NCBI GenBank assembly: GCA_963851265.1
Contig: CAWKNZ010000002.1
Location: 1,088,001-1,152,000 of the forward strand
Length of the DNA stretch: 64,000 nucleotides
Source of the DNA: an uncultured Gemmatimonadales bacterium
GTDB taxonomy: Bacteria; Gemmatimonadota; Gemmatimonadetes; Gemmatimonadales; Gemmatimonadaceae
Direction: 5' to 3'
The number at the start of each line of letters is the position of its first letter. Within the stretch, counting starts at the first letter, position 1. The translations under genes were made by a program, and so were the position numbers. Below the pieces are notes generated by a model. It saw only the letters and a program-made list of their open reading frames with translations. It was not told the DNA's origin and did not search any database. This document shows, one piece after another, positions 8,088 to 62,776 of this stretch.

Positions 8088-9340
8088 CCGCCGGCGTGAC
8101 ACGCGGCACGCCGGCGACCGATCGCGGTCCGACGCTGCTCTGGGTGAACCAGTTCGCGGTCACCCCGGCGCAGCAGGGCGGGACGCGGCACTTCGAGTTG
8201 GGCCGCGAACTCGTCCGCCGCGGCTGGGGGGTGACCGTCGCCGCGTGCGACCTCAACCTGCACTCCCGCGAGTACGCGCGGCGAGCCGACGCGCGTGCCA
8301 CGGGCGCCGTCGACGACGTGGTAGACGGCGTGCACTTTCGGTGGCTCTGGGCCGCGCCGTACGCGCGCAACGACTGGCGCCGCGCGCACAACTGGCTGTC
8401 GTTCAGCCGTCGCGTGTGGCGCTGGCGCGGCGCGCGCCCGAACGTCGTGATCGGGTCGTCGCCGCAGCTTTTCGCGGCGCTCGCGTCGGAGCGCCTCGCG
8501 CGGCGCTGGCGGGTGCCGTTCGTCTTCGAGGTGCGCGACCTGTGGCCCGAGAGCCTGCTCGCCGCGGGCGGGCGTCGCGGCCTTTCCTACCGCGTGCTCG
8601 AGCGCATCGCGCGCCACCTCTACGCGCGCGCGGAGCGCATAGTCGTGCTCGCGCGCGGTTCGGCCGACTACCTCGTATCGTTAGGCGTCGATCCGGCGAA
8701 GATCGTCTTCGTGCCCAACGGGGTGGACGTGTCGGCGTTCGCGGCGGTCGACCGGCCGCCGCGCGAGACGCTCACGTTGGTGTACACCGGCGCGCACGGG
8801 CCGGCCAACGGGCTCGACGCGGTGCTCGACGCCGCGGAACTGCTCCGGGACCGGCGCGACGTGCGCTTCCTCCTCGTGGGCGACGGCCCGCTGAAGGGCG
8901 CGCTCGTCGCCGACGCGGCGCGGCGGGCGCTCGGCAATGTCGAGTTCCGCGACCCGGTGCCCAAGTCGGCGATGCCGGCGCTGCTCGCGAGCGTCGACGC
9001 GGGGCTCATGGTACTCCGCGATTCGCCGCTGTTCACGTTCGGCGTCAGCCCCAACAAGCTGTTCGACTACCTCGGCGCGGGACTGCCGGTGGTCTGCAAC
9101 GTCCCCGGCGAGGTCGCGGCGATCGTGCGCGACGCGGGCGCGGGCGAGCAGACCGCGGACGCGAGCGGGGCCGCGCTCGCCGCCGCGGTCGCGCGGCTCG
9201 CCGCCCGGGCGCCCGCGGAACGCGCGGCGCTCGGCGCGGCCGGGCGGGCGTGGGTCGCCCACGAGCACGACCGCCCCGTGCTCGCCGATCGTCTGGACGC
9301 TGTGCTCCGCCCCCTCGCGCGTTCCCGTGCTGCCCGTTAG
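8084..9340 (+). CDS. Glycosyltransferase family 4 (WbuB-like)
   Basis: GTGA overlap with asnB stop; FEVRDLWPES, PNGVD, SPNKLFDYL. Confidence 0.92.
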   Translation: MTAGVTRGTPATDRGPTLLWVNQFAVTPAQQGGTRHFELGRELVRRGWGVTVAACDLNLHSREYARRADARATGAVDDVVDGVHFRWLWAAPYARNDWRRAHNWLSFSRRVWRWRGARPNVVIGSSPQLFAALASERLARRWRVPFVFEVRDLWPESLLAAGGRRGLSYRVLERIARHLYARAERIVVLARGSADYLVSLGVDPAKIVFVPNGVDVSAFAAVDRPPRETLTLVYTGAHGPANGLDAVLDAAELLRDRRDVRFLLVGDGPLKGALVADAARRALGNVEFRDPVPKSAMPALLASVDAGLMVLRDSPLFTFGVSPNKLFDYLGAGLPVVCNVPGEVAAIVRDAGAGEQTADASGAALAAAVARLAARAPAERAALGAAGRAWVAHEHDRPVLADRLDAVLRPLARSRAAR

Positions 9341-11261
9341 GCGCTGGCCCGCGGCGGCCGGCACGCTCGCGCGCACCTTCGGCGTGCGCGGAGCGGCGTT
9401 CCGCGCCGTGCACGAGCTACGGCGCGCCGCGAACCGGTTCCGCGCCGCGCCGCGACACCCGCTCGTGGTCGACCGGCTGCGCGCCGACGCGACCTTCCGC
9501 GTGGACGCGGCGCGCCTGGCCGCGGCCACCGACGCGGCGGCCGCGATCGCGCGCGGCGACCGCGTCCTCGCCGGCGAACACGAGGCGTACCGGTGGACGT
9601 GGATGCCGCTTCCGACCACTCCCGCCGCGTGGCTCCGGCATCCGCGCACCGCACACGTCCACCCGGGCCGCGCGCCCTGGTGGACGGTGGCGCACCTCGA
9701 CGCGTCGGCGGGCGACATCAAGGACGTGTGGGAGCCGGCGCGCTTCGGCTGGGTCTACGATCTCGTTCGGGCGTCGCTCGTCTCGGGGGACCCGCGGTAC
9801 TCGGCGGCGTTCATCCGCGAGTTCGAGCGTTGGGCGGCGAGCAGCCCGCCGTTCGCCGGACCGCACTGGTCGTGCGGCCAGGAGACCGCGATTCGTGCGG
9901 TCGCGCTGTTGTACGCCGAAGCGAACCTGCCACTCGCGCCCGACGCCGCGGCCGCGGTCCTCGCCACGCTCGCCGCGTCCGGGGAACGGATCAACGACGC
10001 GCTCGGCTACGCCGTCTCGCAGCGCAACAATCACGCGATCTCCGAGGCCGTAGGGCTGCTCGCGATCGGGGCGCGGTTGCGTGACGCACACCCCGAAGCG
10101 GCCCGGTGGGAGGCGCGGGGGCGTCGATGGTTCGCGCGGCTCGTGTCGGAGCAGTTCGCCGACGACGGGTGGTACGCCCAGCACTCGTTCACGTACCTGC
10201 GACTCGCGCTCGACCAGTGCATCGTCGGCGCACGGGTGCTTCGCGCGGCCAGCGGCGAGCTTCCCGACGTCGCCGTGCAGCGGCTACGCGCAGCCGTGGC
10301 GTTGCTGCTCGCCGTCGTTGAGCCCGAGTCGGGCGATGTGCCCAACTACGGCGCCAACGATGGTGCGTTCGTGCACCCGATCACGACGGCTGCCTATCGC
10401 GATTTCCGCCCCGTGATCACCGCCGCGTGCGCGACGTGGGACATTCCGCTCCCCGAGAACGTCGTGTGCGACGCCGAAGCGCTCGCCTGGCTCGGCCTCC
10501 CCGCGCCAAGCCCCGCCCCGCCGCTCGTCGACGGGGTGCAACACGGCGCGTCCGGCTGGGCGGCGGCGCGCGTCGGGAACACGCGCGTGTTCGTTCGCGC
10601 GGGCCGCTACGCGAGCCGGCCAAGCCACGTCGATCCGCTGCACGTCGACGTGCGGTTCGGGCGCGAGCCGGTGATCGTCGACGCCGGCACGTTCGCGTAC
10701 AACGCGGCGGCCCCGTGGCGGAATGGGCTCGTGACGGCGCACGTGCACAACGGCCCACTGCTCGATGAGCGCGAGCCGGGCGTACGCGGTCCGCGCTTTC
10801 TGTGGTACGCTTGGCCCGACGCGCGGTTGGCGGCGGTCGGGTGGTCCGGCGGCGTCGCGACCATCGTCGCCGAACGCGGCGGTGAGGTGCGGCGCACCAT
10901 TCGTGTGACGCCGGAGCGCGTCGAGATCGAGGATCACGTCGAGCCGGGTATCGCGGACGAAGTGGCCGTACGCTGGCTTCTTCACCCCGACGCGATCGAC
11001 TCGTCGCTCCACGTCGACATCCTCGAGCGCGAGGACGGTCCCGCGCAGACGGAGGTCGTCCGCGCGATCGAGGGCAGGGTGGATGGCTGGTACTCGCCGG
11101 CGTATGGGGTCCGCCAGCCGTCTCGGACCGTCGTCGTCCGGCGCGCCGCGCGACGCGGTGGCACACTGGTGACGACCATCTGCCCGCGCGATGGCCGGCC
11201 AGGTGGTACATCGTCCAGTGTCCCGGCCGCCGAACGCCTCCTCGCCATCGCACCCGCATGA
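9327..11261 (+). CDS. Heparinase II/III-like protein
   Basis: DIKDVWEPARF, NNHAISEA, QHSFTY, PNYGANDG, HVDPLH, DAGTFAYN, HN motifs. Confidence 0.85.
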   Translation: MLPVRRWPAAAGTLARTFGVRGAAFRAVHELRRAANRFRAAPRHPLVVDRLRADATFRVDAARLAAATDAAAAIARGDRVLAGEHEAYRWTWMPLPTTPAAWLRHPRTAHVHPGRAPWWTVAHLDASAGDIKDVWEPARFGWVYDLVRASLVSGDPRYSAAFIREFERWAASSPPFAGPHWSCGQETAIRAVALLYAEANLPLAPDAAAAVLATLAASGERINDALGYAVSQRNNHAISEAVGLLAIGARLRDAHPEAARWEARGRRWFARLVSEQFADDGWYAQHSFTYLRLALDQCIVGARVLRAASGELPDVAVQRLRAAVALLLAVVEPESGDVPNYGANDGAFVHPITTAAYRDFRPVITAACATWDIPLPENVVCDAEALAWLGLPAPSPAPPLVDGVQHGASGWAAARVGNTRVFVRAGRYASRPSHVDPLHVDVRFGREPVIVDAGTFAYNAAAPWRNGLVTAHVHNGPLLDEREPGVRGPRFLWYAWPDARLAAVGWSGGVATIVAERGGEVRRTIRVTPERVEIEDHVEPGIADEVAVRWLLHPDAIDSSLHVDILEREDGPAQTEVVRAIEGRVDGWYSPAYGVRQPSRTVVVRRAARRGGTLVTTICPRDGRPGGTSSSVPAAERLLAIAPA

Positions 11262-13420
11262 AGCAGTTGCTGCAACAGCTCGACACGGGGGTGACCCGGC
11301 TCGTCGACGTCCCCGCGCCGAGTGCCGGCTCCGCCGCGCTCGTCGTCGAGACACGGGCGACGGTCGTCTCGGCAGGCACGGAGCGCATGCTCGTCGAGTT
11401 CGGTCGCGCCAACCTGCTCGACAAGGCGCGCCAGCAACCCGATAAGGTCCGTCAGGTGCTCGACAAGGTGCGCACGGACGGGCTCGCGCCGACGCTCGAG
11501 GCGGTACGCGCCAAGCTGGATGCGCCCATCCCGTTAGGCTACTGCCACGCCGGGGTGGTCGTCGAGGCCGGCGACGGCGTGCGCCAGTTCCGGCGCGGCG
11601 ACCGCGTCGTGACCAACGGCGCGCACGCCGAGTACGTGCGCGTGCCGCAGACGCTCGCGGCCCGCATCCCCGACGCGGTCGGCTTCGAGACGGCGGCGTT
11701 CACCCCACTCGCCGCCATCGGCCTGCAGGGAGTGCGGCTCGCCGCCCCCACGCTCGGCGAGACCGTCGTGGTCTACGGGCTCGGTCTCATCGGCCTGCTC
11801 ACCGTGCAGTTGCTCCGCGCGAACGGGTGCCGCGTGATCGGGATCGACCGCGACGCCGCGCGCCTCGCTCTCGCCGAGCGCTTCGGAGCGACGGTGATCG
11901 ACGGCGGGGCGGGGGTGGCCGCGGAGCACGTGCTCGCGCATACGCGTGGCGTGGGAGCGGACGCCGTGTTGCTCACACTCGCATCGCAATCGGACGAGCC
12001 GGCACACGACGCCGCCGTGATGAGCCGCAAGCGCGGCCGGATCGTGCTCGTCGGCGTGACGGGACTCCACCTGCGACGCGACGACTTCTACCGCAAGGAG
12101 CTTTCGTTCGCGGTGTCGTGTAGCTACGGACCGGGCCGCTACGACCCCGAGTACGAGGAGGCCGGGCGCGACTATCCGCTCGCCTTCGTGCGGTGGACCG
12201 AACAGCGGAACTTCGACGCGGTCCTCGCGCTCATGGCACAGGGAGCCGTCGATCCGCTCCCGCTCGTCACGCACCGCGTCGCATTCGACGACGCGCCCGC
12301 CGCGTACGACGTGATTGCGGGCGGAACTCCGAGCCTGGGCGTCGTGCTCCAGTATCCCGACCGCGGTGGCGAGCGCCCGACGGCCGCCGCGCGACTCGTC
12401 GCCACACCCGGCGCGGGCGCGGCCGGGCGCGCCCGCAAGCCGACACCGGGAGTGGTCGGCGTGATTGGGGCAGGCAATTTCGCGGTTCGCACCCTGCTGC
12501 CCGCGTTACAGGCGACCGGTGCGCGTCTACAGACCATCGTATCGTCGGGCGGAACGACCGGTGCGATTGCGGCTCAGAAGTTTGGCTTCGCGCAGACGAG
12601 CAGCGACGTCGATGACGTCCTCAACGACAGCGTCGTCGACACCGTGTTCGTGCTCACTCGACACGATTCGCACGCGCGGCTCGCCGAGCGCGCGCTCGGC
12701 GCGGGTAAGCACGTGTTCGTCGAGAAGCCGCTCGCGCTGACCGAGGACGCGCTCGAGCGCGTGCGCGAGGCGCAAGCGGCATCGGGCCGACTGCTCACGG
12801 TCGGCTTCAACCGCCGGTTCGCGCCGCTGACGCGGGAAGTTCGTGCGCTTCTGCGCGGCCGCGCGGGACCGGTGTCGGTGATCGCGACCGTGAATGCGGG
12901 CGCGATCCCGCGCGATCATTGGACGCAGGACCCGGAGGCGGGTGGCGGCCGCATCGTCGGTGAGGCGTGCCACTTCATCGACCTCTGCCGCGCGCTGGTC
13001 GGCTCACCGATCCGCGAACTCCAGGTCGCCACGGCGCGCGATGCCGCCGGCCGGCCGATCGACGACATCGCGCACCTGTCGCTCGGCTTCGACGACGGAT
13101 CCACGGCGGCGGTGCACTACCTCGCGACCGGGGCACGCGCGTTCCCGAAGGAGCGGATCGAGTGCTTCTGGGATGGGAAGACGGCCGCAATCGACAACTG
13201 GCGTCGCGTGCACCGGTACGGCGTACCCGGCCCGATGTGGGAGCGATCGCGGGCGATGGACAAGGGCCACGCAGAGGAGCTGCGGCGCTGGATGGCAGCC
13301 GTGCGGGGTGAGGGCGCGCTTCCGATTCCGCTCGACGAGCTGTTCGAAGTCTCGCGCTGGTCGGCGTACGCGGGACGCGTCGCACGCGCGGGCGACGCCG
13401 GCGGCGCGCCTGCGTGTTGA
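11258..13420 (+). CDS. Bi-domain oxidoreductase (Zn-binding dehydrogenase + Gfo/Idh/MocA)
   Basis: SAGTERML, GLGLIG, SYGPGRYD, RWTEQRN, GAGNF, HVFVEKP, GFNRRF, GEACHFID. Confidence 0.93.
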   Translation: MKQLLQQLDTGVTRLVDVPAPSAGSAALVVETRATVVSAGTERMLVEFGRANLLDKARQQPDKVRQVLDKVRTDGLAPTLEAVRAKLDAPIPLGYCHAGVVVEAGDGVRQFRRGDRVVTNGAHAEYVRVPQTLAARIPDAVGFETAAFTPLAAIGLQGVRLAAPTLGETVVVYGLGLIGLLTVQLLRANGCRVIGIDRDAARLALAERFGATVIDGGAGVAAEHVLAHTRGVGADAVLLTLASQSDEPAHDAAVMSRKRGRIVLVGVTGLHLRRDDFYRKELSFAVSCSYGPGRYDPEYEEAGRDYPLAFVRWTEQRNFDAVLALMAQGAVDPLPLVTHRVAFDDAPAAYDVIAGGTPSLGVVLQYPDRGGERPTAAARLVATPGAGAAGRARKPTPGVVGVIGAGNFAVRTLLPALQATGARLQTIVSSGGTTGAIAAQKFGFAQTSSDVDDVLNDSVVDTVFVLTRHDSHARLAERALGAGKHVFVEKPLALTEDALERVREAQAASGRLLTVGFNRRFAPLTREVRALLRGRAGPVSVIATVNAGAIPRDHWTQDPEAGGGRIVGEACHFIDLCRALVGSPIRELQVATARDAAGRPIDDIAHLSLGFDDGSTAAVHYLATGARAFPKERIECFWDGKTAAIDNWRRVHRYGVPGPMWERSRAMDKGHAEELRRWMAAVRGEGALPIPLDELFEVSRWSAYAGRVARAGDAGGAPAC

Positions 13421-14058: not shown

Positions 14059-14181
14059 GCGCACAACTTCCGCTCGCGGCATGTTGATCGTCCGCATGGC
14101 GACGCCCAGCGGCGTCCGCGCCCGCCTCGGCTTCGGATCGCGCCCGGGCGCGATCTCGATATTCGACAGCGCCGCGCCGGC

Positions 14182-16291: not shown

Positions 16292-17449
16292 TCAGACGGC
16301 GGCGGGGTGGAGCTCCGCGGCGCCTAACGTAGCCCTGACGGCCGCGGTGACGCGTGCTTGGTCCCGAGCGGTGAGTGACGACGACGACGGTAGGCACACG
16401 CCGGTGCGGTACAGGCGCTCGGCGACGCCGCCGCCGATCACGCCGCAGCCTTCGAACATCGGCTGCATGTGCATCGGGCGCCAGACGGGGCGCGCCTCGA
16501 TGTCGTCGGCCCCCAGTCGCGCGACGAGCGCGGTCGGCGTCGCCGCCGCGACGTCGGGGTCGAGGAACATGACCGTGAGCCATCGCGAGTGCGTGCCCCA
16601 GGCGGCCTCGCGCTGGAACTCGACGCCGGGCAGCGAGCCGAGCGCGTCGCGGTAGCGTTCGAACACGGCTCGGCGCTGGGCGACGCGCTCGGCGAGCACG
16701 GTGATCTGCCCGCGCCCGATCCCGGCGAGGACGTTGCTCAGCCGGTAGTTGTAGCCGAGCTCCGCGTGCAGGTACTCGACCGCCGGCTCGCGCGACTGGT
16801 TGGCCCACTTGCGCATGCGCGCGAGGGCGTCGGCGTCGCGCGTGACGACCATCCCGCCGCCGGTGGTCGTGATGATCTTGTTGCCGTTGAAGCTCAGGAT
16901 GGCGTAGTCGGCGGTGGTCGCGGTCGGGCGGCCGCCGTACGTCGCGCCGAGCGACTCGGCCGCGTCCTCGACGAGGGTCACGCCGTACTCGGCGCACGCG
17001 TGCGCGATCGCGTCGACGTCGGCGTGTTGGCCGTACAGGTGCACCGCGACGAGCGCCTTCGGCAGCGCGCCGCGCCGCGCCGCGTCGCGCAGGTACTCCG
17101 CGACGAGATCCGCAGAGACGTTGCCCGACTCGGCCTCGCTGTCGACGAATACCGGCGTCGCGCCGAGGTACAGGATGGGCCACACGGAGCCCGCGAACGT
17201 GAGCGACGAAACGGCGACCCGGTCGCCCGGGCCGACGCCGACGGCGCGCAGCACGAGGTGTAAGGCCGCCGTGCCGCTCGCAGTCGCCAGGGTGCGCACG
17301 CCGTGGCCTAACGCAGAGGCGACGTCGGCTTCGAAGCCGTCGAGGCTGGGCCCGGTCGATGACAGCCAGTTCGTGCGGAACGCCTCGTCCACGAACGAGC
17401 GCTCGAGGCCGCTCATGTGTGGGACGGAGAGGTAGATGCGATCGGACAT
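16292..17449 (-). CDS. DegT/DnrJ/EryC1/StrS aminotransferase (PglE-like)
   Basis: SGTAALHL, VHLYGQ, EDAAESLG, SFNGNKIITTTGGG, GYNYRLSN, CLPS. Confidence 0.95.
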   Translation of the reverse strand: MSDRIYLSVPHMSGLERSFVDEAFRTNWLSSTGPSLDGFEADVASALGHGVRTLATASGTAALHLVLRAVGVGPGDRVAVSSLTFAGSVWPILYLGATPVFVDSEAESGNVSADLVAEYLRDAARRGALPKALVAVHLYGQHADVDAIAHACAEYGVTLVEDAAESLGATYGGRPTATTADYAILSFNGNKIITTTGGGMVVTRDADALARMRKWANQSREPAVEYLHAELGYNYRLSNVLAGIGRGQITVLAERVAQRRAVFERYRDALGSLPGVEFQREAAWGTHSRWLTVMFLDPDVAAATPTALVARLGADDIEARPVWRPMHMQPMFEGCGVIGGGVAERLYRTGVCLPSSSSLTARDQARVTAAVRATLGAAELHPAAV

Positions 17450-20747: not shown

Positions 20748-20757
20748 CGCGCGACTG

Positions 20758-27616: not shown

Positions 27617-27680
27617 GGTGTCATTACAGGTGCATGCAACTTTGCGGAAGTCGATCGGGCGCGAGTCAGCCGTCTCGAAC

Positions 27681-28502: not shown

Positions 28503-28510
28503 GCGCCGTC

Positions 28511-53481: not shown

Positions 53482-53497
53482 TCCGGGCCCACCGCGC

Positions 53498-55531
53498 GTG
53501 ATCACCCCCGAGAGCATCGAGCGCGTGCGCGAGGCCGCCGACATCGTCGACATCGTCGGCGAGCACGTGAAGCTCAAGCGGAGCGGGTCGAGCTTCCGAG
53601 GCCCGTGCCCGTTCCACCACGGTACGGGTCCCAACTTCGCCGTCACCCCGCGCACGAACGCCTACTACTGCTTCGTCTGCCACGCGAAGGGCGACGTGAT
53701 CGGCTTCGTGCGCGACCACCTCGGGCTCGATTTCGTGGAAGCGGTGAAGTACGTCGCGGACCGCGCCGGCGTGGAGGTGCAGGAGACGCGGAACCGCCCC
53801 ACCGAGGAGCGCGACGCGCGCGAACCGCTCTGGGAGGCGAACGCTGCTGCCGCGGAGCTCTTCCGGACGACGCTCTGGGAGGACGCCGAGGCGCAGGGCG
53901 CGCGCGAATACCTCGCCTCGCGCGACGTCTCGCGCGACGACGCGGACCGGTTCGGACTCGGCTACGCGTGGCGCGACGGGTCGCGGTGGGTGCAGAAGCT
54001 CGGCGCGTTAGGCCACGACCCCGCGCGGTTGCTCGACGCGGGGCTGCTGGGGCGGCGCGACGAGCGCCCCGACGAGCCGTACCCGTACTACCGCGGGCGC
54101 CTCATGATCCCGATCCAGGACGCCGCGGGACGGACGGTCGGGTTCGGAGGCCGCGCGCTCCGCGCCGACCAGCAACCGAAGTACCTGAACTCGCCGCAGG
54201 GCGCGCTGTTCGACAAGGGGCGGCAGCTCTACGGCCTGTCGTGGGCCAAGCACCCGATCCGCAAGGCCGAGCGCGCGCTCGTGGTCGAAGGCTACTTCGA
54301 CGCGTTGCGGCTCGCGCTCGCGGGAATCGAGGAGACGGTCGCCGGCCTGGGCACCGCCCTCACCGAAGATCAGGCCGCGATCGTCGCCAAGCTCACGCGC
54401 AACGTGTTCCTCGTCTACGACGGGGATGGCCCGGGGCAGAAGGCGACCGTGAAGGCTGGGCACGCGCTGCTCCGGCTCGGCGTCGCGCCGCGTGTCGTAT
54501 CGCTTTCCGGCGGCGAGGACCCGGACACGTACGTCCGCGCGCACGGCCGTGAGGCGATCGAGGCCGCCCTCGCGCAGGGGCTCGACGTGCTCGACTGGCA
54601 GATCCTGCTGCTCCAGCGCCACGCGTACTTCACCGACCTGCACCGCACGCGTCGCGCGATCGACAAGCTCTTGCCCACCGTGCGCGCCGCGGCCGACCCG
54701 GTCACGCGTGACCTCTACATCGCGCGGCTGGCCGAAGTGGCGAAGCTCGACCGCGACGTGCTGCAGCGAGAGGTCGACGCGCCCCCACAGCGCGGGACGG
54801 GGGCGGCACCGCCCCCGGGATCGCAAGCGCCGACGGGCGGACCAGCCGCGCCGCGCGGCGCGGTCGCCGAGCCCGCTCGGGGAGCGCCGCGCGGCGCCCG
54901 CGAGGTGAGCGCGGACGGCGTCGAGTACGTGACGGCCGCACCCGCCCGCGAGGATCGCCCCGGATTCCGCCCGTTCGAGCGACGCACGCTGCGCGGGCGT
55001 CGGGCCGAGGAGTGGGTGAGCGTCCGCGCGGTCCCACGCGTCCCACTGGACGCGATCACGCGGCGCGCCGAACGCGAACTCGTGCGGGCGATGGTGCAGG
55101 ATCGCCGGCTCGTCGAGGCGGTCGCGGAAAAGTGGCAGCCCGAGGCCTTCCACGAGGATGCGTTCCGCGAGCTGTTCGCTCGGCTCCTGCACGACCCCGA
55201 CCAGCCGCTCGACGACGCCGCGCGCGGCTTCCCCGAGCAGGCCGTTCGCCTCATCGACGAAACGCTGAGCGAGCGCGACCCGTCGCCCGAACTCACCGTG
55301 GCGAGCTGGCTGGTGAAGCTGCAGGTGCGCGCGCTCGACAACGAGAAGGCCGAGATCCTGCGCAGGCTCACGGTGAATACGCCGCCGGTGCTCGACGGCG
55401 AGAAGGATCTGCTGATCACGCGCATGCAGGCCCTGCAAGCGGAGCGCGCGGCGCTCTCGCCGACGTACGGGCGGGTGGCCGCGTCGCGCGAGTCGTACGC
55501 CAACGAACCGGGCGCCGACGAGCGCCGCTGA
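53498..55531 (+). CDS. dnaG: DNA primase
   Basis: CPFHH...CFVC zinc finger, GFGGR, KYLNSP, VEGYFD, YDGD, DPD. Confidence 0.97.
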   Translation: MITPESIERVREAADIVDIVGEHVKLKRSGSSFRGPCPFHHGTGPNFAVTPRTNAYYCFVCHAKGDVIGFVRDHLGLDFVEAVKYVADRAGVEVQETRNRPTEERDAREPLWEANAAAAELFRTTLWEDAEAQGAREYLASRDVSRDDADRFGLGYAWRDGSRWVQKLGALGHDPARLLDAGLLGRRDERPDEPYPYYRGRLMIPIQDAAGRTVGFGGRALRADQQPKYLNSPQGALFDKGRQLYGLSWAKHPIRKAERALVVEGYFDALRLALAGIEETVAGLGTALTEDQAAIVAKLTRNVFLVYDGDGPGQKATVKAGHALLRLGVAPRVVSLSGGEDPDTYVRAHGREAIEAALAQGLDVLDWQILLLQRHAYFTDLHRTRRAIDKLLPTVRAAADPVTRDLYIARLAEVAKLDRDVLQREVDAPPQRGTGAAPPPGSQAPTGGPAAPRGAVAEPARGAPRGAREVSADGVEYVTAAPAREDRPGFRPFERRTLRGRRAEEWVSVRAVPRVPLDAITRRAERELVRAMVQDRRLVEAVAEKWQPEAFHEDAFRELFARLLHDPDQPLDDAARGFPEQAVRLIDETLSERDPSPELTVASWLVKLQVRALDNEKAEILRRLTVNTPPVLDGEKDLLITRMQALQAERAALSPTYGRVAASRESYANEPGADERR

Positions 55532-55592: not shown

Positions 55593-57377
55593 GTGCCCGC
55601 ACACGCCACCGCTCGTCCGGCCGTTCGCCCGCGCCCTCGGCCTCGCTGGACCATCGCTCCCGCGCCGGACGCCGCGACGGTCGCCGCGCTCGCCGCCGGG
55701 TTGCAGCTGCCCGAAACCGTGTGTCGGCTGCTCGTCGTGCGAGGACATCGCGCGGTGGACGGTGCCAAGCACTACTTGCGCCCGCGCCTCGACCAGCTCC
55801 ACGCGCCCGACCGGCTGAACGGCGTCGCGCGGGCCGCCGAGCGGCTCGCCACGGCGGTGCGGCGGGGCGAAACGGTGCTGGTGCACGGCGATTACGACGT
55901 CGACGGGATGTGCTCGACTGCGATCATGGTGCGCGTGCTGCGCGCCGTCGGCGGCGTCGTGGTCCCGTTCATCCCCGACCGCCTCACGGACGGCTACGAC
56001 CTGACCGGGGCGGGCGTGCGCGCGGCCAAGGCGGCCGGCGCGGCAGTGGTGCTCACCTGCGACTGCGGAACCAGCGCGCACGGTCCCGTCGAGGCGCTCT
56101 GCGAGGCCGGGGTCGACGTGATCGTGAGCGACCACCACCTCCCGGGTCACGGGCGCGACGTGCCGGCGTGTCACGCGGTGCTCAACCCGAATGCGCCCGG
56201 CACCGACTACCCCGACGCGGACCGCGGGCTGTGCGCCGCGGGCGTCGCGTTCAAGCTCGCGCTCGCGCTCGTCCAGACGTTAGGCGCGAGCGACGCGATC
56301 GTCTGGCGGCAGCTCGACCTCGTCGCGCTCGCGACCATCGCGGACGTCGCACCGCTGCGGGGCGAAAATCGCGTGCTGGCGCGCTACGGCCTCAAGCTCA
56401 TGGCCGATTCGCCGAATGCCGGCCTGCGCGCGCTCGTTCGCGCGGCGGGGCTCGACGCGAAGCCGCTTACGGCCGGGCGGGTGGGCTTCATCCTCGCGCC
56501 GCGGCTCAACGCCGTCGGCCGGCTCGGGTCGGCGCTCCGCGGCGTGGAGCTGCTCACCACCGACGACGCGCACGAGGCGAACGTGATCGCGCGCGAGCTC
56601 GAGGAGCTCAACCGGCGGCGTCAGGATCTGGACCGCGCGACGCTCGACGCGGCACGCCGGCAGCTCGACCGGATCGACCTCGACGCCACCTACGGACTGG
56701 TGCTCGCGGGCGACGGCTGGCACCCGGGGGTGATCGGGATCGTCGCCTCGCGCGTCGTCGAGGAGACCGGGCGACCGGCCGTGCTGGTCGCCGTCGAGAA
56801 CGGGGTCGGGAAGGGCAGCGGCCGCTCGATCGCCGCGTTCGACCTGCACGACGCGCTCTCCGCGTGCGACGCACGCGGCCTGTTCCACCGCTTCGGCGGC
56901 CACAAGGCGGCCGCCGGCGTGACGCTCGACGCGGCCAAGGTGCCCGCCTTCGCCGAGGCGTTCGCCGCGGTCGCGCGCGAGCGGCTGACGAAGGACCAGC
57001 TCGTCCCCGAGCTGCGCGTCGACCTCGAGTTGCCGTTAGGCGCCGTCACCGACGCGCTCGAGGCCACGCTCCGCCACCTGGAGCCGCACGGCCTCGGCAA
57101 CGCGGCGCCGGTCCTCGCCGTACGCGGCGCGCGGCTCGCGACGCCGCCGCGTCCGGTCGGCACGGACGGCGTACGGCTGAGCTTCCGCACGCCCGACGGC
57201 GGCGAGATCGGCGCGATCGGGTGGGGGATGCTCGACCGCGCCGAGGGGCTGGACGTGCACACGCCGGTCGACGTCGCGTTCCGGCTCGAGCGCGACGACT
57301 ATCGTGGCGCCGACCGGCTGCAGCTACGGCTCGCCGACGTCACGCCGTCCGCGCGCACGGGCGCGCTCGCGGAGTAG
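55593..57377 (+). CDS. recJ: ssDNA exonuclease RecJ
   Basis: GDYDVDG, DCG, DHH, ATIADV, PRLNAVGR, GSGRS, GGH..AAG. Confidence 0.97.
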   Translation: MPAHATARPAVRPRPRPRWTIAPAPDAATVAALAAGLQLPETVCRLLVVRGHRAVDGAKHYLRPRLDQLHAPDRLNGVARAAERLATAVRRGETVLVHGDYDVDGMCSTAIMVRVLRAVGGVVVPFIPDRLTDGYDLTGAGVRAAKAAGAAVVLTCDCGTSAHGPVEALCEAGVDVIVSDHHLPGHGRDVPACHAVLNPNAPGTDYPDADRGLCAAGVAFKLALALVQTLGASDAIVWRQLDLVALATIADVAPLRGENRVLARYGLKLMADSPNAGLRALVRAAGLDAKPLTAGRVGFILAPRLNAVGRLGSALRGVELLTTDDAHEANVIARELEELNRRRQDLDRATLDAARRQLDRIDLDATYGLVLAGDGWHPGVIGIVASRVVEETGRPAVLVAVENGVGKGSGRSIAAFDLHDALSACDARGLFHRFGGHKAAAGVTLDAAKVPAFAEAFAAVARERLTKDQLVPELRVDLELPLGAVTDALEATLRHLEPHGLGNAAPVLAVRGARLATPPRPVGTDGVRLSFRTPDGGEIGAIGWGMLDRAEGLDVHTPVDVAFRLERDDYRGADRLQLRLADVTPSARTGALAE

Positions 57378-57387
57378 GGCGGACCGC

Positions 57388-58433: not shown

Positions 58434-58466
58434 GCGGCGCGTGAGTCGCACGTGAGCGGTACGTGA
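58428..58466 (+). repeat. 11-bp tandem repeat (three full units plus a partial, CGTGA core) between coaD and pta
   Basis: GCGTGAGCGGC GCGTGAGTCGC ACGTGAGCGGT ACGTGA. Confidence 0.8.
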
Positions 58467-59871: not shown

Positions 59872-59884
59872 CCGTCCATCCGCG

Positions 59885-60310: not shown

Positions 60311-60312
60311 CG

Positions 60313-61917
60313 ATGGGCCGCGCGAGCACGCGCGCGGCGACCGAACTCGGCGCCGTGCTCCGGGCGTTCCGGGCCGCGACCGGTTGCGGCGCCGCACTGT
60401 GGGCGGCCGACGCACCCGACGCGGCCCTGCGGCTCGTCGCCGACGACGGGCAGGCGCACGCGTCGGGCCCACCGAACGTCGCCGACGCGACGGAAGCGCA
60501 GATCGCCGGTGGGCAGCGTGCCGCGGCGGTGCCGGGCCTGCCCCTCACGTGGCTCGCGGTGGGCCCGTGCGCCGACGGCGCCGCGCCGTCCCCCGAACAG
60601 GTCCAGCTGCTGCTCCCACTCGTCGCGGGTCAGCTGCACGCGATCGGTGAGGTCGAGCAGGCCGCGCTCGAGCTGTCCGAGCGCTACGAGGAGATCAACC
60701 TCCTCTATACCATCAGCGAGATCCTCGGTCGCGCGGTCACGCTCGAGGAGACCGCGGGCGTGATCCTCGACGAGGTCTCGGAGACGGTCGGCGCGCGCCG
60801 AGGCGCGATCTACCTGCACGAGCCCGCGGGCGGGGTGCTGCGCGCGATCGCGACGTTAGGCGTCGCCGGCGCCGCCGTCCCGGCCATCGACGCGAGCGAC
60901 CCGCAGAGCACGGCGGCGCGCGTGTTCCGCACGCTCAACCCGACGATCGACGACCGGGACGGCGTTGCGTCGGACGCCGACGGGCCCGTCCGCGACGGCG
61001 CGCTGCTCTGCGTCCCGATCGTGTGGAGCGGGCCCGAGCGTGGAGACCCGCTCGGCGTCGTCGCGCTCTCGGACCGCCGCGCCGGTCAGCAGTTCACCGC
61101 CGGCGACCTCAAGCTCGTGACGGCGATCGCGTCTCAGATCGCGGCCGCGATTCAGAATGCGCGCCTCGTGCGCGCCTCCATCCAGCAGCAGCGCCTCACG
61201 CAGGAGATGGCGCTCGCGCACGACCTCCAGATGTCGCTCCTGCCACGCGTCGACGTCGTCGCGCCCGCGGCCACCGTCGCCGCGCGCGTCGAGCCCGCCG
61301 ACAGTGTGGGAGGCGACTTCTACCAGCTCGTCCGGTTGCCCGAGGGGAGGACCGGCGTGATGGTCGGCGACGTGTCGAGCCACGGCTACCGGGCCGCGCT
61401 CATCATGGCGCTCACGATGAGCGCCGCGGCGATCCATGCCCAACAGTCGGCCGACCCGGCCGAAACACTCGGCGCCGTGCTCGGCTCGCTCGGCGACGAG
61501 CTGGCGAACACGGAAATGTTCATCTCGACCGTGTACGCCGTGGTCGACCCTCGCGCGGGAACGCTCCTGTACGCGAACGCCGGCCACCCGCACGCGTTCG
61601 TGCTGCGCGCCGACGGGACGGCCGAGCGGCTTCCGGCCGGCGCGCCGCCATTGGGGCTCGTCTCCGTGACGCCCGCGTGCGCGCAGACCGAGTGGCACGC
61701 CGGCGAGGACCTGCTGCTCGTGTTCACCGACGGGATCAGCGAGGCGACGAACGCCGACGGCGAGATGCTCGGCGAGGAGCCGGTCCTCGCGGCCGCGCGC
61801 CGCGCGCCACGGCGCGAGCCCGCCGCGGTCGTGGCCGCGGTTTTCGACGCGCTGCACGCTCACACGGGCGGTTCGAAGCCGCGCGACGACCTCACGCTCG
61901 TCGTCGTCCGGAGCTGA
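60313..61917 (+). CDS. GAF + PP2C (SpoIIE/RsbU-like) phosphatase
   Basis: GAF region, LQMSLLP, VGGDFY, GDVSSHG, NAGHP, FTDGISE, DDLT. Confidence 0.93.
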   Translation: MGRASTRAATELGAVLRAFRAATGCGAALWAADAPDAALRLVADDGQAHASGPPNVADATEAQIAGGQRAAAVPGLPLTWLAVGPCADGAAPSPEQVQLLLPLVAGQLHAIGEVEQAALELSERYEEINLLYTISEILGRAVTLEETAGVILDEVSETVGARRGAIYLHEPAGGVLRAIATLGVAGAAVPAIDASDPQSTAARVFRTLNPTIDDRDGVASDADGPVRDGALLCVPIVWSGPERGDPLGVVALSDRRAGQQFTAGDLKLVTAIASQIAAAIQNARLVRASIQQQRLTQEMALAHDLQMSLLPRVDVVAPAATVAARVEPADSVGGDFYQLVRLPEGRTGVMVGDVSSHGYRAALIMALTMSAAAIHAQQSADPAETLGAVLGSLGDELANTEMFISTVYAVVDPRAGTLLYANAGHPHAFVLRADGTAERLPAGAPPLGLVSVTPACAQTEWHAGEDLLLVFTDGISEATNADGEMLGEEPVLAAARRAPRREPAAVVAAVFDALHAHTGGSKPRDDLTLVVVRS

Positions 61918-61921
61918 GCGC

Positions 61922-62776
61922 GTGCCGCGCCGCGAAGGCGGGCTGCCCGCGCCCCGCAAACGATTCGGGCAGCACTTTCTGCGCGACCGTGCCGTGCTCG
62001 CGCGCATCGTCGACGCGCTCGCGCTCACCGGTACCGAGACCGTGATCGAGATCGGCCCGGGTCGCGGCGCGCTCACCGACCTGCTCGCGCCCCGCGCCGG
62101 CCGGCTCGTCGCCGTCGAGATCGACCGCGACCTCGCCGCGCACCTGCGTGCGCGCTACGCGGCCGATCGCCACGTCGAGATCGTCGAGGGCGACGTGCTG
62201 CAGCTCTCGCTCGCGGCGCTGGCGGGCCCGGAGTACGTGCTCGCCGGCAACGTGCCGTATTACATCACGACGCCGATCCTCTTTCACGCGCTCGCCGTGC
62301 CGCGCCCGCGGCGCGCGGTGTACCTCGTACAGCGCGAAGTCGCGGACCGGCTCGTCGCCGAGCCCGGCGGGAAGACGTACGGCGCGTTAGGCGTGAACGT
62401 GCAGGCCGTCGCGTCGGTCGAACTCGTCGTGCGCGTGCCGCCCGGCGCGTTCGCGCCTCCTCCGCAGGTGGATTCGGCGGTCGTCCGCGTGACGCCGCGC
62501 GCCGACCCCGTGGTCGCGCCGGATGAAGAGGCGCGCTTCCGGCGCTTCGTCCAGGCCGCCTTCGCGCTCCGCCGCAAGCAGCTGCGGCGCGTGGTGCGCA
62601 CGATCGGCGGGCTCGACGCCGAGGCCGCCGACGCGATACTGAACACCGCCGGGGTCGACCCGGACGCGCGCCCCGAGACGTTGACGGCTGCCGAGTTCGC
62701 CGCGCTCGTGCGCGCCGTCGCGGCCGGCGGTGGTGCGACGGGCACGCCCCTTCCGGCGCTGCCGGGCGGACCCTAG
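61922..62776 (+). CDS. rsmA: 16S rRNA dimethyltransferase RsmA/KsgA
   Basis: KRFGQHFL, EIGPGRGALT, EID, GNVPYYIT, QREVA, FAPPPQVDS, RRKQL. Confidence 0.97.
   Translation: MPRREGGLPAPRKRFGQHFLRDRAVLARIVDALALTGTETVIEIGPGRGALTDLLAPRAGRLVAVEIDRDLAAHLRARYAADRHVEIVEGDVLQLSLAALAGPEYVLAGNVPYYITTPILFHALAVPRPRRAVYLVQREVADRLVAEPGGKTYGALGVNVQAVASVELVVRVPPGAFAPPPQVDSAVVRVTPRADPVVAPDEEARFRRFVQAAFALRRKQLRRVVRTIGGLDAEAADAILNTAGVDPDARPETLTAAEFAALVRAVAAGGGATGTPLPALPGGP

What the first reader, a model, noticed from the sequence alone, without database searches (positions are those of the whole stretch)
8679..62392. Over-represented non-palindromic octamer CGTTAGGC: candidate Chi-like, DNA-uptake or architecture motif
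Seen: at least 15 exact copies by eye. Plus strand: 8679, 9335, 11532, 28497, 36879, 52334, 54006, 56278, 57034, 60854, 62385. Minus strand (GCCTAACG): 16322, 17306, 20742, 26971. One-mismatch copies lie at 16241, 31981 and 63575. A zero-order estimate at about 73% GC predicts about 2, and TTA/TAG are otherwise scarce. Ten copies are in-frame xCG-TTA-GGC (Leu-Gly) using the rarest Leu codon, roughly half of the TTA codons I noticed. Flanking bases vary, so the unit is the octamer, not a longer repeat. Density is about 1 per 4 kb with 11 of 15 on one strand. Known: E. coli Chi is a non-palindromic, strand-biased octamer of similar density that is often absorbed into codons, and Neisseria DUS/Haemophilus USS also embed in coding DNA. 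Inference: this may be an uncharacterised lineage-specific recombination, uptake, segregation or modification signal. dprA is present and four copies fall in mutS2/dnaG/recJ, but the numbers are small.
Basis: partly seen in the sequence, partly recalled or inferred. Interest (0 to 1): 0.85.

Follow-up and report, generated by a model that had tools for sequence, protein, structure and literature searches.

The report
Genome-wide selected DNA word (C)GTTAGGC
This soil bacterium and some of its relatives keep one exact seven-to-eight-letter DNA word written about every 2.6 kb through ordinary genes, stop codons and spacers against their own codon habits, which means that some still unknown protein reads the DNA itself, most likely as a "self" tag for DNA exchange.

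Summary
All 15 CGTTAGGC copies sit at the stated coordinates, against 1.2 expected. The excess holds genome-wide: 1396 octamers and 1762 GTTAGGC heptamers in 4.6 Mb. That is 17-24 times Markov and synonymous-codon-shuffle nulls.

The signal is a DNA-level word, not a codon effect. It fills every tolerated frame on both strands, including stop codons, and the sense-strand bias disappears once coding opportunity is counted. A congener conserves it far better than synonymous alternatives, 31/44 against 57/146 and 376/3141. Copies are spaced more evenly than chance.

It shows no replication polarity, and most word-rich genomes have no RecC, so Chi and KOPS are rejected. No DNA methyltransferase partner was found.

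Within Gemmatimonadaceae the word is patchy: 38 of 151 genomes are rich. It was enriched in none of the 92 genomes from 11 other families of the phylum.

It is spelled like the integron core site, flanks included, yet its abundance does not track the integron integrase.

The best reading is a tag resembling the DNA uptake sequences of Neisseria (DUS) and Haemophilus (USS), with an unknown reader (confidence 0.4).

Earlier agents of this scan reported the same word in this genome and in other DNA.

The parts
8679..8686 (+). CGTTAGGC, in frame as TCG-TTA-GGC (Leu-Gly) in a glycosyltransferase gene (8084-9340 +)
9335..9342 (+). CGTTAGGC whose TAG (9338-9340) is the stop codon of the gene 8084-9340; it overlaps the modelled start region of the next gene (9327-11261)
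11532..11539 (+). CGTTAGGC, in frame as CCG-TTA-GGC in an oxidoreductase gene (11258-13420 +)
16322..16329 (-). CGTTAGGC on the - strand, in frame as ACG-TTA-GGC in the DegT-family aminotransferase gene (16292-17449 -)
17306..17313 (-). CGTTAGGC on the - strand, in frame as GCG-TTA-GGC in the same aminotransferase gene
20742..20749 (-). copy on the - strand; on the + strand it reads GCC-TAA-C and gives the TAA stop of the glycosyltransferase gene 19569-20747 (+)
26971..26978 (-). copy antisense to the glycosyltransferase gene 26447-27616 (+), read there as G-CCT-AAC (Pro-Asn)
   Evidence: frame worked out from the coordinates
28497..28504 (+). CGTTAGGC whose TAG is the stop codon of the gene 27642-28502 (+)
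36879..36886 (+). one copy serving two convergent genes: TAG stop of the RmlD-type gene 35886-36884 (+) and, on the other strand, TAA stop of the PfkB kinase gene 36881-38044 (-)
52334..52341 (+). CGTTAGGC, in frame as GCG-TTA-GGC in mutS2 (51040-53481 +)
54006..54013 (+). CGTTAGGC, in frame as GCG-TTA-GGC in dnaG (53498-55531 +)
56278..56285 (+). CGTTAGGC, in frame as ACG-TTA-GGC in recJ (55701-57377 +)
57034..57041 (+). CGTTAGGC, in frame as CCG-TTA-GGC in recJ
60854..60861 (+). CGTTAGGC, in frame as ACG-TTA-GGC in a GAF/SpoIIE phosphatase gene (60307-61917 +)
62385..62392 (+). CGTTAGGC, in frame as GCG-TTA-GGC in the rRNA adenine dimethylase gene (61922-62776 +)
43749..44924 (+). dprA (DNA_processg_A + DprA_WH), a transformation gene. 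It belongs to the machinery the uptake reading needs; it carries no copy of the word.

Best explanation
(C/T)GTTAGGC is a word selected at the level of the DNA duplex. A sequence-specific protein, not yet identified, reads the exact heptamer in either orientation. The genome is kept stocked with about one copy per 1-3 kb.

Copies are written wherever the proteins tolerate them: Leu-Gly as TTA-GGC, Pro-Asn as CCT-AAC on the other strand, TAA and TAG stop codons, spacers, and a few hairpins between convergent genes.

The most likely use is as a 'self' tag in DNA exchange between kin, working like the uptake sequences of Pasteurellaceae and Neisseriaceae. Under that reading, DNA fragments that carry a copy are imported, or kept, preferentially. 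That both selects for and drives the spread of copies, and a second copy close by adds nothing.

Shown: the excess, the frame and strand pattern, the conservation, the even spacing, the lineage distribution, and the presence of ComEC, PilT and DprA.

For: Excess. 1762 heptamers and 1396 octamers against 160 (order 1) and 58 (order 3) expected. In coding DNA, 1305 and 1043 observed against 77 +/- 10 and 45 +/- 8 in 20 synonymous-codon shuffles. The word is sharply defined: single-base variants that keep TTA have 8-102 copies against 1396. There are no conserved flanks beyond -1 and +7.

DNA level, not RNA or translation. The 1762 copies divide as follows:
- sense Leu-Gly 995, which is 75% of all 1321 TTA codons
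- intergenic 268 (15% of copies on 10% of bases)
- antisense Pro-Asn 205
- antisense TAA stop 121 (of 438 TAA stops)
- antisense Leu-Thr 78
- sense TAG stop 71 (of 748)
- sense Val-Arg 24
Per opportunity, the antisense Pro-Asn placement is used at least as often as sense Leu-Gly: 205/1480 against 995/10947.

Purifying selection. In 150 kb aligned with congener G125 (80% nucleotide identity), G-TTA-GGC is identical in 31/44 cases. The figures for alternatives are 57/146 for G-CTC-GGC, 1/18 for G-CTG-GGC, 0/10 for G-TTG-GGC, and 376/3141 for other A/T-ending codons. Unshared sites mostly face GCTCGGC, two changes away, with few intermediates.

Even spacing. For coding sites, gaps under 100 bp number 2 against 37 +/- 6, gaps of 100-200 bp 7 against 34 +/- 5, and gaps over 6.4 kb 189 against 218 +/- 8. 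The null is a random choice among the same coding opportunities.

No replication polarity.

Some inverted pairs form hairpins between convergent genes, as seen for DUS and USS (that comparison is recalled).

Machinery. ComEC was found in 139/151 family genomes and in 37/38 rich ones. The three genera with no ComEC hit in any sampled genome (g18, g44, g63) have no word-rich genome. PilT was found in 151/151. dprA is in the window.

Lineage. 38 of 151 family genomes are rich. None of 92 genomes from 11 other families of the phylum is enriched.
Against: No uptake or transformation data exist for these bacteria, and none was found in print.

The competence genes do not discriminate. ComEC and PilT are just as present in word-poor genomes: ComEC in 78 of 87 poor genomes, PilT in all.

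No ComP-type receptor reaches the family cut-off in any of 5 genomes.

Two word-poor genomes sampled over 200 kb each show no alternative 'dialect' word. So the trait is present or absent, unlike the DUS dialects (recalled).

Inverted terminator pairs are few. There are 19 inverted pairs within 200 bp among 1762 copies, and about half of them look like integron attC sites.

The uptake model does not predict that the word, with its flanks, equals the integron core site.

One 45-kb housekeeping stretch of G000 has no copy at all.

My gene models are home-made (3752 genes, 90% coverage). Replichores were inferred from gene-strand bias on one contig, because GC skew is flat.
Confidence: 0.4

Rival explanations
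1. Integron-linked word. The word is the recombination core (R box) of this lineage's integron attC sites. Its genome-wide spread is caused by, or serves, something in integron biology: binding of an IntI- or Xer-type recombinase, or another attC-reading factor, at lone half-sites; secondary cassette insertion sites; or cassette formation.
For: GTTAGGC fits the integron core consensus GTTRRRY, whose crossover falls between G and TT (passage read in PMC3681742).

In G000, about 8 pairs of GCCTAAC and GTTAGGC lying 66-149 bp apart fold like attC sites. Their boxes read CGCCTAACG and CGTTAGGCG, the same -1 C and +7 G that the genome-wide word prefers.

IntI is common in the family: 88/151 genomes over cut-off.

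In word-poor genomes of other families, the few copies often sit on one strand 0.6-1 kb apart, like cassette arrays (not examined further).
Against: Word abundance does not track IntI. Using E < 1e-84 as my proxy for the cut-off, IntI is present in 23/38 rich and 48/87 poor genomes, Spearman rho 0.05. The three genomes with the densest word (genus g9) and G047 and G106 have no full IntI hit, though these are fragmented assemblies. G000's own IntI match covers only positions 2-265 of 315.

More than 98% of copies are solitary and lie in frame in housekeeping genes without a partner box.

Site-specific recombination cannot turn CTC-GGC into TTA-GGC.

A passage in PMC3681742 argues that IntI1 recombination with genomic sites can cause deleterious deletions. 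That would select against such sites in genes.
Confidence: 0.2
2. Binding site of a chromosome-organising protein. On this reading the word is a nucleoid-associated, condensin-loading or occlusion-type factor's site, needed at regular intervals along the chromosome and kept out of particular domains.
For: Even spacing, with a deficit of both very short and very long gaps. Both orientations are used.

The longest copy-free stretch of G000 (45,086 bp, about 17 copies expected) is not foreign DNA (GC 0.738, GC3 0.908). It holds gidA, parA, parB, mnmE and the genome's only two perfect parS-like palindromes.

The orthologous DNA of two congeners is also depleted. By my reading there are about 7 copies in 40 kb in G125 and about 3 in 34 kb in G073, against 0.3-0.6 per kb over the stretches of them that I fetched.
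Against: The depletion around parB is not seen in other rich genera. G039 has 35 copies and G106 has 26 within +/-20 kb of parB. So it is not a general property of the word.

I recall no known nucleoid protein that reads a strict asymmetric 7-8-mer at thousands of sites.

No candidate protein was found. Each of 5 genomes, rich or poor, has a single FtsK gamma domain.
Confidence: 0.15
3. Methylation- or repair-driven word, like the cyanobacterial HIP1 octamer as I recall it. A methyltransferase site, or a very-short-patch-type repair bias, keeps regenerating the word.
For: HIP1 is the other known case of a hyper-abundant short word inside genes whose cause is unresolved (recalled, no call). The complement GCCTAAC has the look of an asymmetric type IIL or BREX-like site (recalled).
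Against: G000 and G048 have no N6_N4_Mtase and no C5 DNA_methylase hit. G000 has only frameshifted pieces of N6_Mtase genes, plus a weak hit in an ORF that poor genomes share.

C5 methyltransferases occur in 7/38 rich and 23/87 poor genomes (counted by hand).

A site-autonomous bias cannot produce even spacing.

Other methyltransferase families and Vsr were not searched.
Confidence: 0.07
4. Chi-like or KOPS-like polar signal. On this reading the word is an attenuator of a RecBCD/AddAB-type nuclease or a guide for FtsK.
For: G000 has an AddAB/AdnAB-like pair of PDDEXK_1 ORFs at C3:244.5-249 kb.
Against: Neighbouring copies in oppositely oriented genes lie on the same strand in only 115 of 329 pairs, about what gene strand alone predicts.

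On putative replichores, Leu-Gly sites are realised in 165/1779 opportunities in co-oriented genes against 42/587 in counter-oriented genes (p = 0.13). For Pro-Asn the figures are 22/222 against 9/84.

RecC was found in 16/151 genomes and only 2/38 rich ones. G048 and G150 (about 4000 copies each, 96-97% complete) show no PDDEXK_1 domain. No alpha-type AddB was found in 5 genomes.
Confidence: 0.03

Closest known systems
DNA uptake sequences: USS of Pasteurellaceae and DUS of Neisseriaceae
   Same: An exact short asymmetric word, thousands of copies, on both strands without replication polarity. It is written into genes in the frames that cost least, found at gene ends and in some hairpins between convergent genes, evenly spaced, conserved between related species and lineage-specific. 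The properties of USS and DUS are recalled, not tested here.
   Different: It occurs in another phylum with no known competence. No ComP-type receptor was found. The word is shorter (7-8 bp) and the excess is lower (about 11-24 times). It is present or absent among genera of one family, and even within one genus, rather than universal with dialects. It is spelled like the integron core site. Uptake bias is untested.
Integron core site (R' box, GTTRRRY) of attC and attI
   Same: The heptamer fits the consensus. The preferred flanks match the attC-like sites of this same genome.
   Different: Copies are solitary, mostly in frame in housekeeping genes, with no partner box or hairpin. Abundance is unrelated to the presence of IntI.
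HIP1, the highly iterated palindrome of cyanobacteria (recalled)
   Same: A hyper-abundant octamer-size word inside coding DNA of a whole lineage, with no agreed function.
   Different: HIP1 is a palindrome and has been linked to methyltransferases (recalled). This word is asymmetric, and no methyltransferase partner was found in G000 or G048.
Chi sites and FtsK-orienting KOPS
   Same: Asymmetric words of 5-8 bp at kilobase spacing, absorbed into codons.
   Different: Those are polar with respect to replication and need RecBCD/AddAB or FtsK gamma. Here there is no polarity, RecC is mostly not found, and the excess is much larger.

Membership tests
DNA uptake sequence (USS/DUS) | Exact short word far in excess genome-wide, on both strands | tested here: met
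   1762 heptamers and 1396 octamers (708 on +, 688 on -), 11-24 times Markov nulls and 17-23 times codon-shuffle nulls
DNA uptake sequence (USS/DUS) | Embedded in coding DNA in tolerated frames of either strand, plus intergenic copies and inverted pairs at gene ends | tested here: met
   Six coding placements used. Use per opportunity is similar for sense and antisense. 192 copies are stop codons. Intergenic enrichment is 1.5-fold. A few hairpin pairs lie between convergent genes, though such pairs are rare
DNA uptake sequence (USS/DUS) | No replication-strand polarity | tested here: met
   Replichores were inferred from gene-strand bias only, because GC skew is flat
DNA uptake sequence (USS/DUS) | Competence machinery present (ComEC, type IV pilus retraction ATPase, DprA) | tested here: met
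   G000 has ComEC (C2:1510102-1510974), PilT (C7:762201-763226) and DprA (window 43749-44924). Not discriminating: word-poor genomes have them too
DNA uptake sequence (USS/DUS) | Dedicated receptor of the ComP_DUS minor-pilin family (Neisseria type) | tested here: not met
   No hit over cut-off in 5 of 5 genomes. The best is 20.7 bits against a cut-off of 27.3, with similar weak pilin hits in rich and poor genomes
DNA uptake sequence (USS/DUS) | DNA carrying the word is taken up or transforms preferentially | not testable with these tools
   Needs uptake or transformation assays
Chi site | Orientation bias with the direction of replication | tested here: not met
Chi site | Cognate RecBCD or AddAB enzyme in the genomes that carry the word | tested here: not met
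   RecC found in 2 of 38 rich genomes. No PDDEXK_1 domain in G048 or G150. G000 does have an AddAB/AdnAB-like pair
KOPS / architecture-imparting sequences | Strong skew that flips at ori and ter | tested here: not met
   The cumulative word skew follows the cumulative gene-strand skew and nothing more
Integron attC / attI core site | Sequence fits GTTRRRY | tested here: met
   GTTAGGC. Consensus taken from the passage in PMC3681742
Integron attC / attI core site | Partner inverse core site 60-150 nt away in a foldable attC, in cassette arrays | tested here: not met
   Only 11 '-+' pairs within 200 bp among 1762 copies. About 8 of them are attC-like (C10:188.9-203.8 kb, C6, C9, C11)
Integron attC / attI core site | Depends on an integron integrase | tested here: not met
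   No association across 151 genomes
HIP1-type methyltransferase-linked word | Cognate DNA methyltransferase in the genomes that carry the word | tested here: not met
   PF01555 and PF00145 not found, and PF02384 only broken or marginal, in G000 and G048. Other methyltransferase families were not searched
REP / MITE-type dispersed repeat | Conserved sequence or palindrome beyond the core | tested here: not met
   The flanks show only codon periodicity

The most novel reading that the evidence does not exclude
The word is a self or import tag whose spelling is the integron recombination core. On this reading, the DNA-import or DNA-retention system of these Gemmatimonadaceae is tuned to the very sequence that marks gene cassettes. 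DNA import would then be coupled to integron capture, and the same preference, acting on the bacterium's own DNA, would have driven thousands of copies into its genes.

This would account for several observations together:
- the match to the attC box, flanks included
- the lack of dialects
- the same spelling in every rich genus
- the independence from IntI itself
Probability: 0.1. Interest if true: 0.95.

Novelty: new variant of a known kind. Interest (0 to 1): 0.78.

Why it matters
As far as I recall, sequence-tagged DNA uptake is established in only two families of Proteobacteria. The only other hyper-abundant intragenic word I recall, the cyanobacterial HIP1 palindrome, is still unexplained.

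This word is in a different phylum of common soil bacteria. It is strong enough to hold three quarters of all TTA codons and about 5% of all stop codons. It is under measurable purifying selection and spacing constraint.

Close relatives differ in the trait. One genus holds about 4000 copies in two species and 66 in a third.

The match to the integron core site, if it is not a coincidence, would connect two major routes of gene acquisition.

On the practical side, the word is a composition marker for binning, for host assignment of mobile DNA, and for spotting recently imported regions in these genomes.

Tried and rejected
**Translation- or RNA-level signal** (my first thought, from the 3-base periodicity). 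Rejected. Antisense placements are used as much per opportunity. tRNA-Leu(UAA) is present, so TTA is read normally. Copies are spread evenly along genes, 7.5-12% of opportunities per decile.

**Total strand skew in relatives.** One search listed only + copies for some genomes. This was a listing artefact: the fetched DNA shows both strands.

**Dialects.** The 200-kb samples of word-poor G050 and G041 show no 7- or 8-mer above about 3-10 times expectation, and none as a family of overlapping words. Only two genomes were sampled.

**Integron integrase, ComEC, PilT, C5 methyltransferase and RecC as phylogenetic-profile partners.** None separates rich from poor genomes.

**Small five-genome contrasts** (G000, G048, G150 rich; G107, G050 poor) for RecC, AddB, PDDEXK_1, N6_N4_Mtase, N6_Mtase, C5 methylase, FtsK gamma, ComP_DUS and HK97 capsid. 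No family is confined to the rich genomes. The apparent lack of methyltransferases in rich genomes did not hold family-wide.

**A transducing-particle packaging signal.** No HK97-type capsid was found in 5 genomes. Other capsid families were not searched.

**A rich-specific gene next to comEC.** None was found among 24 G000 genes compared with 4 rich and 40 poor loci.

**Species tree.** The genome-contig scan returned mostly word-poor relatives: 4 rich among 44 family loci. The ComEC-domain tree is only the quick tree, on 55 hand-picked rows.

**parS.** The canonical consensus, recalled from memory, has no match with up to 2 mismatches. A GC-rich variant was found instead.

**Amino-acid drive.** Word-encoded dipeptides are less conserved in word-poor orthologues, 12/39 against 188/394 (Fisher p = 0.045). 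The sample is small, 113 gene pairs from two 200-kb stretches.

**Literature.** 'GTTAGGC' is held by 94 papers; all 25 listed are unrelated, such as primers. 'Gemmatimonas' with 'natural transformation' gave nothing relevant. 'Uptake sequence' with 'Gemmatimonad' gave 0 papers.

Full report
**Status within the scan.** Earlier agents of this scan had already reported the word GTTAGGC in other windows of this same genome and in other Gemmatimonadaceae DNA. They read it as DUS/USS-like, with an unknown reader and the spelling of the integron core. I treated those notes as leads.

**1. The observation**

The window holds 15 exact CGTTAGGC copies at exactly the stated coordinates, 11 on + and 4 on -. 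Dinucleotide-preserving shuffles give 1.20 +/- 1.12, with at most 4 in 100 shuffles.

One-off copies as a class sit at chance level: 69 matches with up to one mismatch against 51 +/- 7 expected.

The window is G000:C2:1088001-1152000 of a 4.60-Mb, 12-contig, 73%-GC genome. It carries:
- a polysaccharide-synthesis cluster (about 1-37 kb)
- an Mla transporter, obg, dprA, hrcA, dnaJ and prmA
- mutS2, dnaG, recJ and ksgA

By my gene models, ten copies are in-frame NCG-TTA-GGC; they account for 10 of the window's 25 TTA codons. Four copies provide stop codons and one is antisense Pro-Asn. The copy at 36879-36886 gives TAG to one gene and, on the other strand, TAA to the convergent gene.

**2. Genome-wide excess and the true unit**

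All 12 contigs carry the octamer at 0.27-0.41 per kb, 1396 copies in all. Expected counts are 145, 82, 50 and 58 at Markov orders 0 to 3.

Among 8-mers with at least 150 copies, ranked by observed over expected at order 3, the top 30 rows (each word listed with its complement) are all overlapping pieces of this one word. The first unrelated word reaches only 4.7-fold.

The unit is the heptamer GTTAGGC, with 1762 copies against about 160 expected at order 1.
- It is preceded by C in 79% and T in 14% of copies.
- It is followed by G in 54%, A in 22%, C in 19% and T in 5%.
- Nothing else in the flanks is conserved except codon periodicity.

About 30% of all TTA/TAA trinucleotides in the genome lie inside the word. 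Single-base variants that keep TTA have 8-102 copies against 1396, so the word is sharply defined.

I shuffled synonymous codons within each gene 20 times. This gives 77 +/- 10 heptamers and 45 +/- 8 octamers, against 1305 and 1043 observed in coding DNA. That null is conservative, because it keeps the TTA, CCT and AAC codons that the word itself contributes.

**3. DNA level, not translation**

No gene caller is installed, so I built my own gene models: 3752 genes covering 90% of the genome. All frame statements rest on them.

The 1762 copies are placed as follows:

| Placement | Copies | Note |
|---|---|---|
| sense G-TTA-GGC (Leu-Gly) | 995 | 75% of all 1321 TTA codons |
| intergenic or unannotated | 268 | 15% of copies on 10% of bases |
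| antisense G-CCT-AAC (Pro-Asn) | 205 | |
| antisense GCC-TAA stop | 121 | of 438 TAA stops |
| antisense GC-CTA-AC (Leu-Thr) | 78 | |
| sense GT-TAG stop | 71 | of 748 TAG stops |
| sense GTT-AGG (Val-Arg) | 24 | |

The 73% sense bias is an opportunity effect. Counting amino-acid contexts that could encode the word, it is realised as follows:

| Context | Realised / opportunities | Share |
|---|---|---|
| Leu-Gly (sense) | 995 / 10947 | 9.1% |
| Pro-Asn (antisense) | 205 / 1480 | 13.9% |
| x-Leu-Thr (antisense) | 79 / 1928 | 4.1% |
| Val-Arg (sense, two rare codons) | 26 / 3578 | 0.7% |

Copies are spread evenly along genes. tRNA-Leu(UAA) is present.

So the word is selected in the duplex and is placed wherever it costs least.

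**4. No replication polarity**

GC skew is flat and gives no ori or ter. dnaA lies on C1.

I ran two indirect tests.
- For neighbouring copies in oppositely oriented genes, the word lies on the same strand in 115 of 329 pairs. For genes of the same orientation the figure is 614 of 966. This is close to what gene strand alone predicts.
- On the part of C2 where gene orientation switches (about 0.8 and 1.4 Mb), genes co-oriented with the local majority realise Leu-Gly sites in 165/1779 opportunities, against 42/587 for counter-oriented genes (p = 0.13). For Pro-Asn the figures are 22/222 against 9/84.

The enzymes a Chi site would need are mostly not found.
- RecC was found in 16 of 151 family genomes and in 2 of 38 word-rich ones.
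- RecC and alpha-type AddB were not found in G000, G048 or G150.
- G048 and G150, with about 4000 copies each, show no PDDEXK_1 nuclease domain. G000 has an AddAB/AdnAB-like pair.

Chi-like and KOPS-like readings are therefore very unlikely.

**5. Selection on the word**

A 200-kb stretch of congener G125 is syntenic with G000:C2:1.657-1.825 Mb at about 80% nucleotide identity.
- Of 59 alignable G000 copies, 39 are shared.
- Of 96 alignable G125 copies, 39 are shared.
- The unshared ones mostly face GCTCGGC (17 and 6 cases), two substitutions away, with few intermediates.

Against controls in the same alignment:

| G000 sequence | Identical in G125 |
|---|---|
| G-TTA-GGC | 31 / 44 |
| G-CTC-GGC (preferred codons) | 57 / 146 |
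| G-CTG-GGC | 1 / 18 |
| G-TTG-GGC | 0 / 10 |
| all other A/T-ending codons | 376 / 3141 |

A heptamer built on the rarest Leu codon is thus the best-conserved synonymous state. That is purifying selection on the DNA word.

In 113 orthologue-like pairs with two word-poor genomes, word-encoded dipeptides are conserved in 12/39 cases against 188/394 for the same dipeptides spelled otherwise (p = 0.045). This weakly suggests that the word sometimes overrides the protein.

**6. Even spacing**

The mean gap is 2.6 kb. Only 46 gaps are 200 bp or less, against 130 expected for an exponential distribution.

I then compared against a null that picks the same number of sites at random from all Leu-Gly and Pro-Asn opportunities per contig, 200 times:

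| Gap | Observed | Null |
|---|---|---|
| under 100 bp | 2 | 37 +/- 6 |
| 100-200 bp | 7 | 34 +/- 5 |
| 200-400 bp | 46 | 62 +/- 8 |
| 0.4-3.2 kb | in excess | |
| over 6.4 kb | 189 | 218 +/- 8 |

A site-autonomous mutation or repair bias cannot do this. The benefit must be per DNA segment of roughly 1-3 kb, with nearby copies redundant.

**7. Who has it**

I surveyed 151 genomes of the family, covering 77 genera. Relatives' record titles name the family Gemmatimonadaceae.

The ratio of the octamer to its reversed control runs from 0.03 to 34. It is above 3 in 38 genomes and at or below 0.3 in 87.

Every rich genus uses the same spelling. Genera are mostly consistent, but g49 holds 3896 and 4141 copies in two species and 66 in a third.

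None of 92 genomes from 11 other families of the phylum is enriched; the maximum is 91 copies.

Word-poor G050 and G041 (200 kb each) have no other hyper-abundant word.

A quick ComEC-domain tree has these limits:
- 55 rows: 20 handle genomes that I picked as 10 rich and 10 poor, G000, and 34 of the 80 loci chosen by hand
- 46 loci left out: 14 family-level ones and 32 from other groups
- the careful search did not finish

It places 8 of 13 rich rows together on a weak branch. The other five fall among poor rows. At least 2 changes are forced by well-supported branches. So the trait is clustered but has been gained or lost several times.

These tallies include four genomes flagged unpublished (G007, G033, G034, G134) and, for the phylum survey, G197 and G227. 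No named example rests on them.

**8.

None of the families I profiled separates rich from poor genomes.

| Family | Overall | Rich (ratio > 3) | Poor (ratio at or below 0.3) |
|---|---|---|---|
| Integron integrase | 88/151 over cut-off | 23/38 (proxy E < 1e-84) | 48/87; rho 0.05 |
| ComEC | 139/151 | 37/38 | 78/87 |
| PilT | 151/151 | all | all |
| C5 methyltransferase | 36/151 | 7/38 | 23/87 |
| RecC | 16/151 | 2/38 | 11/87 |

For ComEC, the exception among rich genomes is 79% complete. The genera with no hit in any sampled genome (g18, g44, g63) have no word-rich genome.

In a five-genome contrast (G000, G048, G150 against G107, G050):
- No ComP_DUS pilin reaches the cut-off.
- Each genome has one FtsK gamma domain.
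- None has an HK97 capsid.
- N6_N4 methyltransferases are not found in G000 or G048. N6_Mtase genes in G000 are in frameshifted pieces.

The comEC neighbourhood holds no rich-specific gene.

**9. The integron coincidence**

GTTAGGC fits the integron core consensus GTTRRRY. I read that consensus, and the crossover between G and the first T, in a passage of PMC3681742. Integrons are reported from Gemmatimonadota in a passage of PMC8618304.

In G000, about 8 pairs of the word's complement and the word, 66-149 bp apart, fold like attC sites. They lie at C10:188.9-203.8 kb, at C6:1.6 kb near a truncated IntI match, and on C9 and C11. Their boxes read CGCCTAACG and CGTTAGGCG, the same -1 C and +7 G that the genome-wide word prefers.

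This goes beyond a seven-letter coincidence. However, more than 98% of copies are solitary, abundance is independent of IntI, and recombination cannot write TTA-GGC over CTC-GGC. I keep an integron-linked reader as the main rival, and a coupling of DNA import to cassette capture as the boldest reading not excluded.

**10. An unexplained desert**

The longest copy-free stretch of G000 is 45,086 bp (C1:182876-227962), where about 17 copies would be expected. It has normal composition and holds housekeeping genes, including gidA, parA, parB and mnmE. It also holds the genome's only two perfect copies of a GC-rich parS-like palindrome.

The same palindrome occurs twice near parB in G125 and G073. 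Their orthologous DNA is also copy-poor. By my reading, G125 has about 7 copies in 40 kb and G073 about 3 in 34 kb. Only 2 and 1 of these fall in aligned columns.

In the rich genera g40 and g48 the parB region has normal density: 35 and 26 copies within +/-20 kb. So this is a genus-level peculiarity. It could be an old import from a word-poor lineage that refills slowly, or a local exclusion around the centromere. It is not a general property of the word.

**Verdict**

The finding is real, strong and unexplained by any known system of this phylum. I found no paper in the held library that links these bacteria with uptake sequences.

It behaves like an uptake-type self tag. Membership of that family cannot be claimed, because the defining property, biased uptake, is untested and a ComP-type receptor is not present.

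Noticed in passing
G000:C1:182876-227962 (outside the window): Longest stretch without the word (45 kb, about 17 copies expected). It has normal GC and holds gidA, parA, parB, mnmE and other housekeeping genes. It is partly conserved as a copy-poor zone in congeners G125 and G073, but not in the rich genera g40 and g48.
   Followed up: partly
G000:C1:192709-192724 and 195715-195730; also L162:1699-1712, 4621-4634 and L166:1447-1460, 4454-4467: A GC-rich parS-like 16-bp palindrome lies just upstream of gidA and of parA. These are the only two perfect copies in the genome. The canonical parS consensus (recalled) has no match with up to 2 mismatches. The same 14-mer occurs twice near parB in both congeners.
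   Followed up: partly
window 36879-36886: Two convergent genes (RmlD-type, + strand; PfkB kinase, - strand) end inside one copy of the word. Its TAG is the stop of one gene and its TTA, read on the other strand as TAA, is the stop of the other.
   Followed up: yes
window 1-37000: Large polysaccharide-synthesis and export cluster: many GT2 and GT4 glycosyltransferases, Wzx/Wzy/Wzz/Wza-type genes, two Wzi-like genes, asparagine synthase, heparinase II/III-like protein, and rmlC/rmlD.
   Followed up: no
G000:C7:771474-772495 and C9:923-1858: N6_Mtase (type I-like) methyltransferase genes matched only as several short frameshifted pieces. They look like pseudogenes. No N6_N4 or C5 DNA methyltransferase was found in G000.
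   Followed up: no
G000:C6:5244-6044 (-), C6:1591-1701, C10:188935-203785: An integron-integrase match covers only positions 2-265 of 315 of the model. An attC-like pair lies 3.5 kb away. Four attC-like pairs on C10 look like a cassette array without an integrase nearby.
   Followed up: partly
G000:C2:11180-11260, C2:116117-116147, C7:567606-567639, C8:177680-177714: Inverted pairs of the word form perfect hairpins between convergent genes. At C8 each arm also supplies a TAG stop codon.
   Followed up: partly
L001-L010 (G047:C2, 186 kb): A second over-represented word family (ACCCTCTA, CCCTCTAC, CCTCTACC) has 17-21 copies, 10-28 times the order-3 expectation. It is not seen in the G000 sample.
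   Followed up: no
L125 (20.6 kb, record labelled as an uncultured Actinomycetes MAG): Three exact octamers in 20.6 kb of a contig from outside the phylum. This could be chance, an integron or a mislabelled bin.
   Followed up: no
G207:C12:90891-94109, C23, C27; G211:C55; G245:C51, C89 (places listed): In word-poor genomes of another family of the order, the few octamers cluster on one strand at 0.6-1 kb spacing, as cassette boundaries of integron arrays would.
   Followed up: no
window, TTA codons listed: Most TTA codons outside the word sit in G-TTA-C contexts (for example GCG-TTA-CGC, GAG-TTA-CGG). This is a possible second context preference for the rare codon.
   Followed up: no
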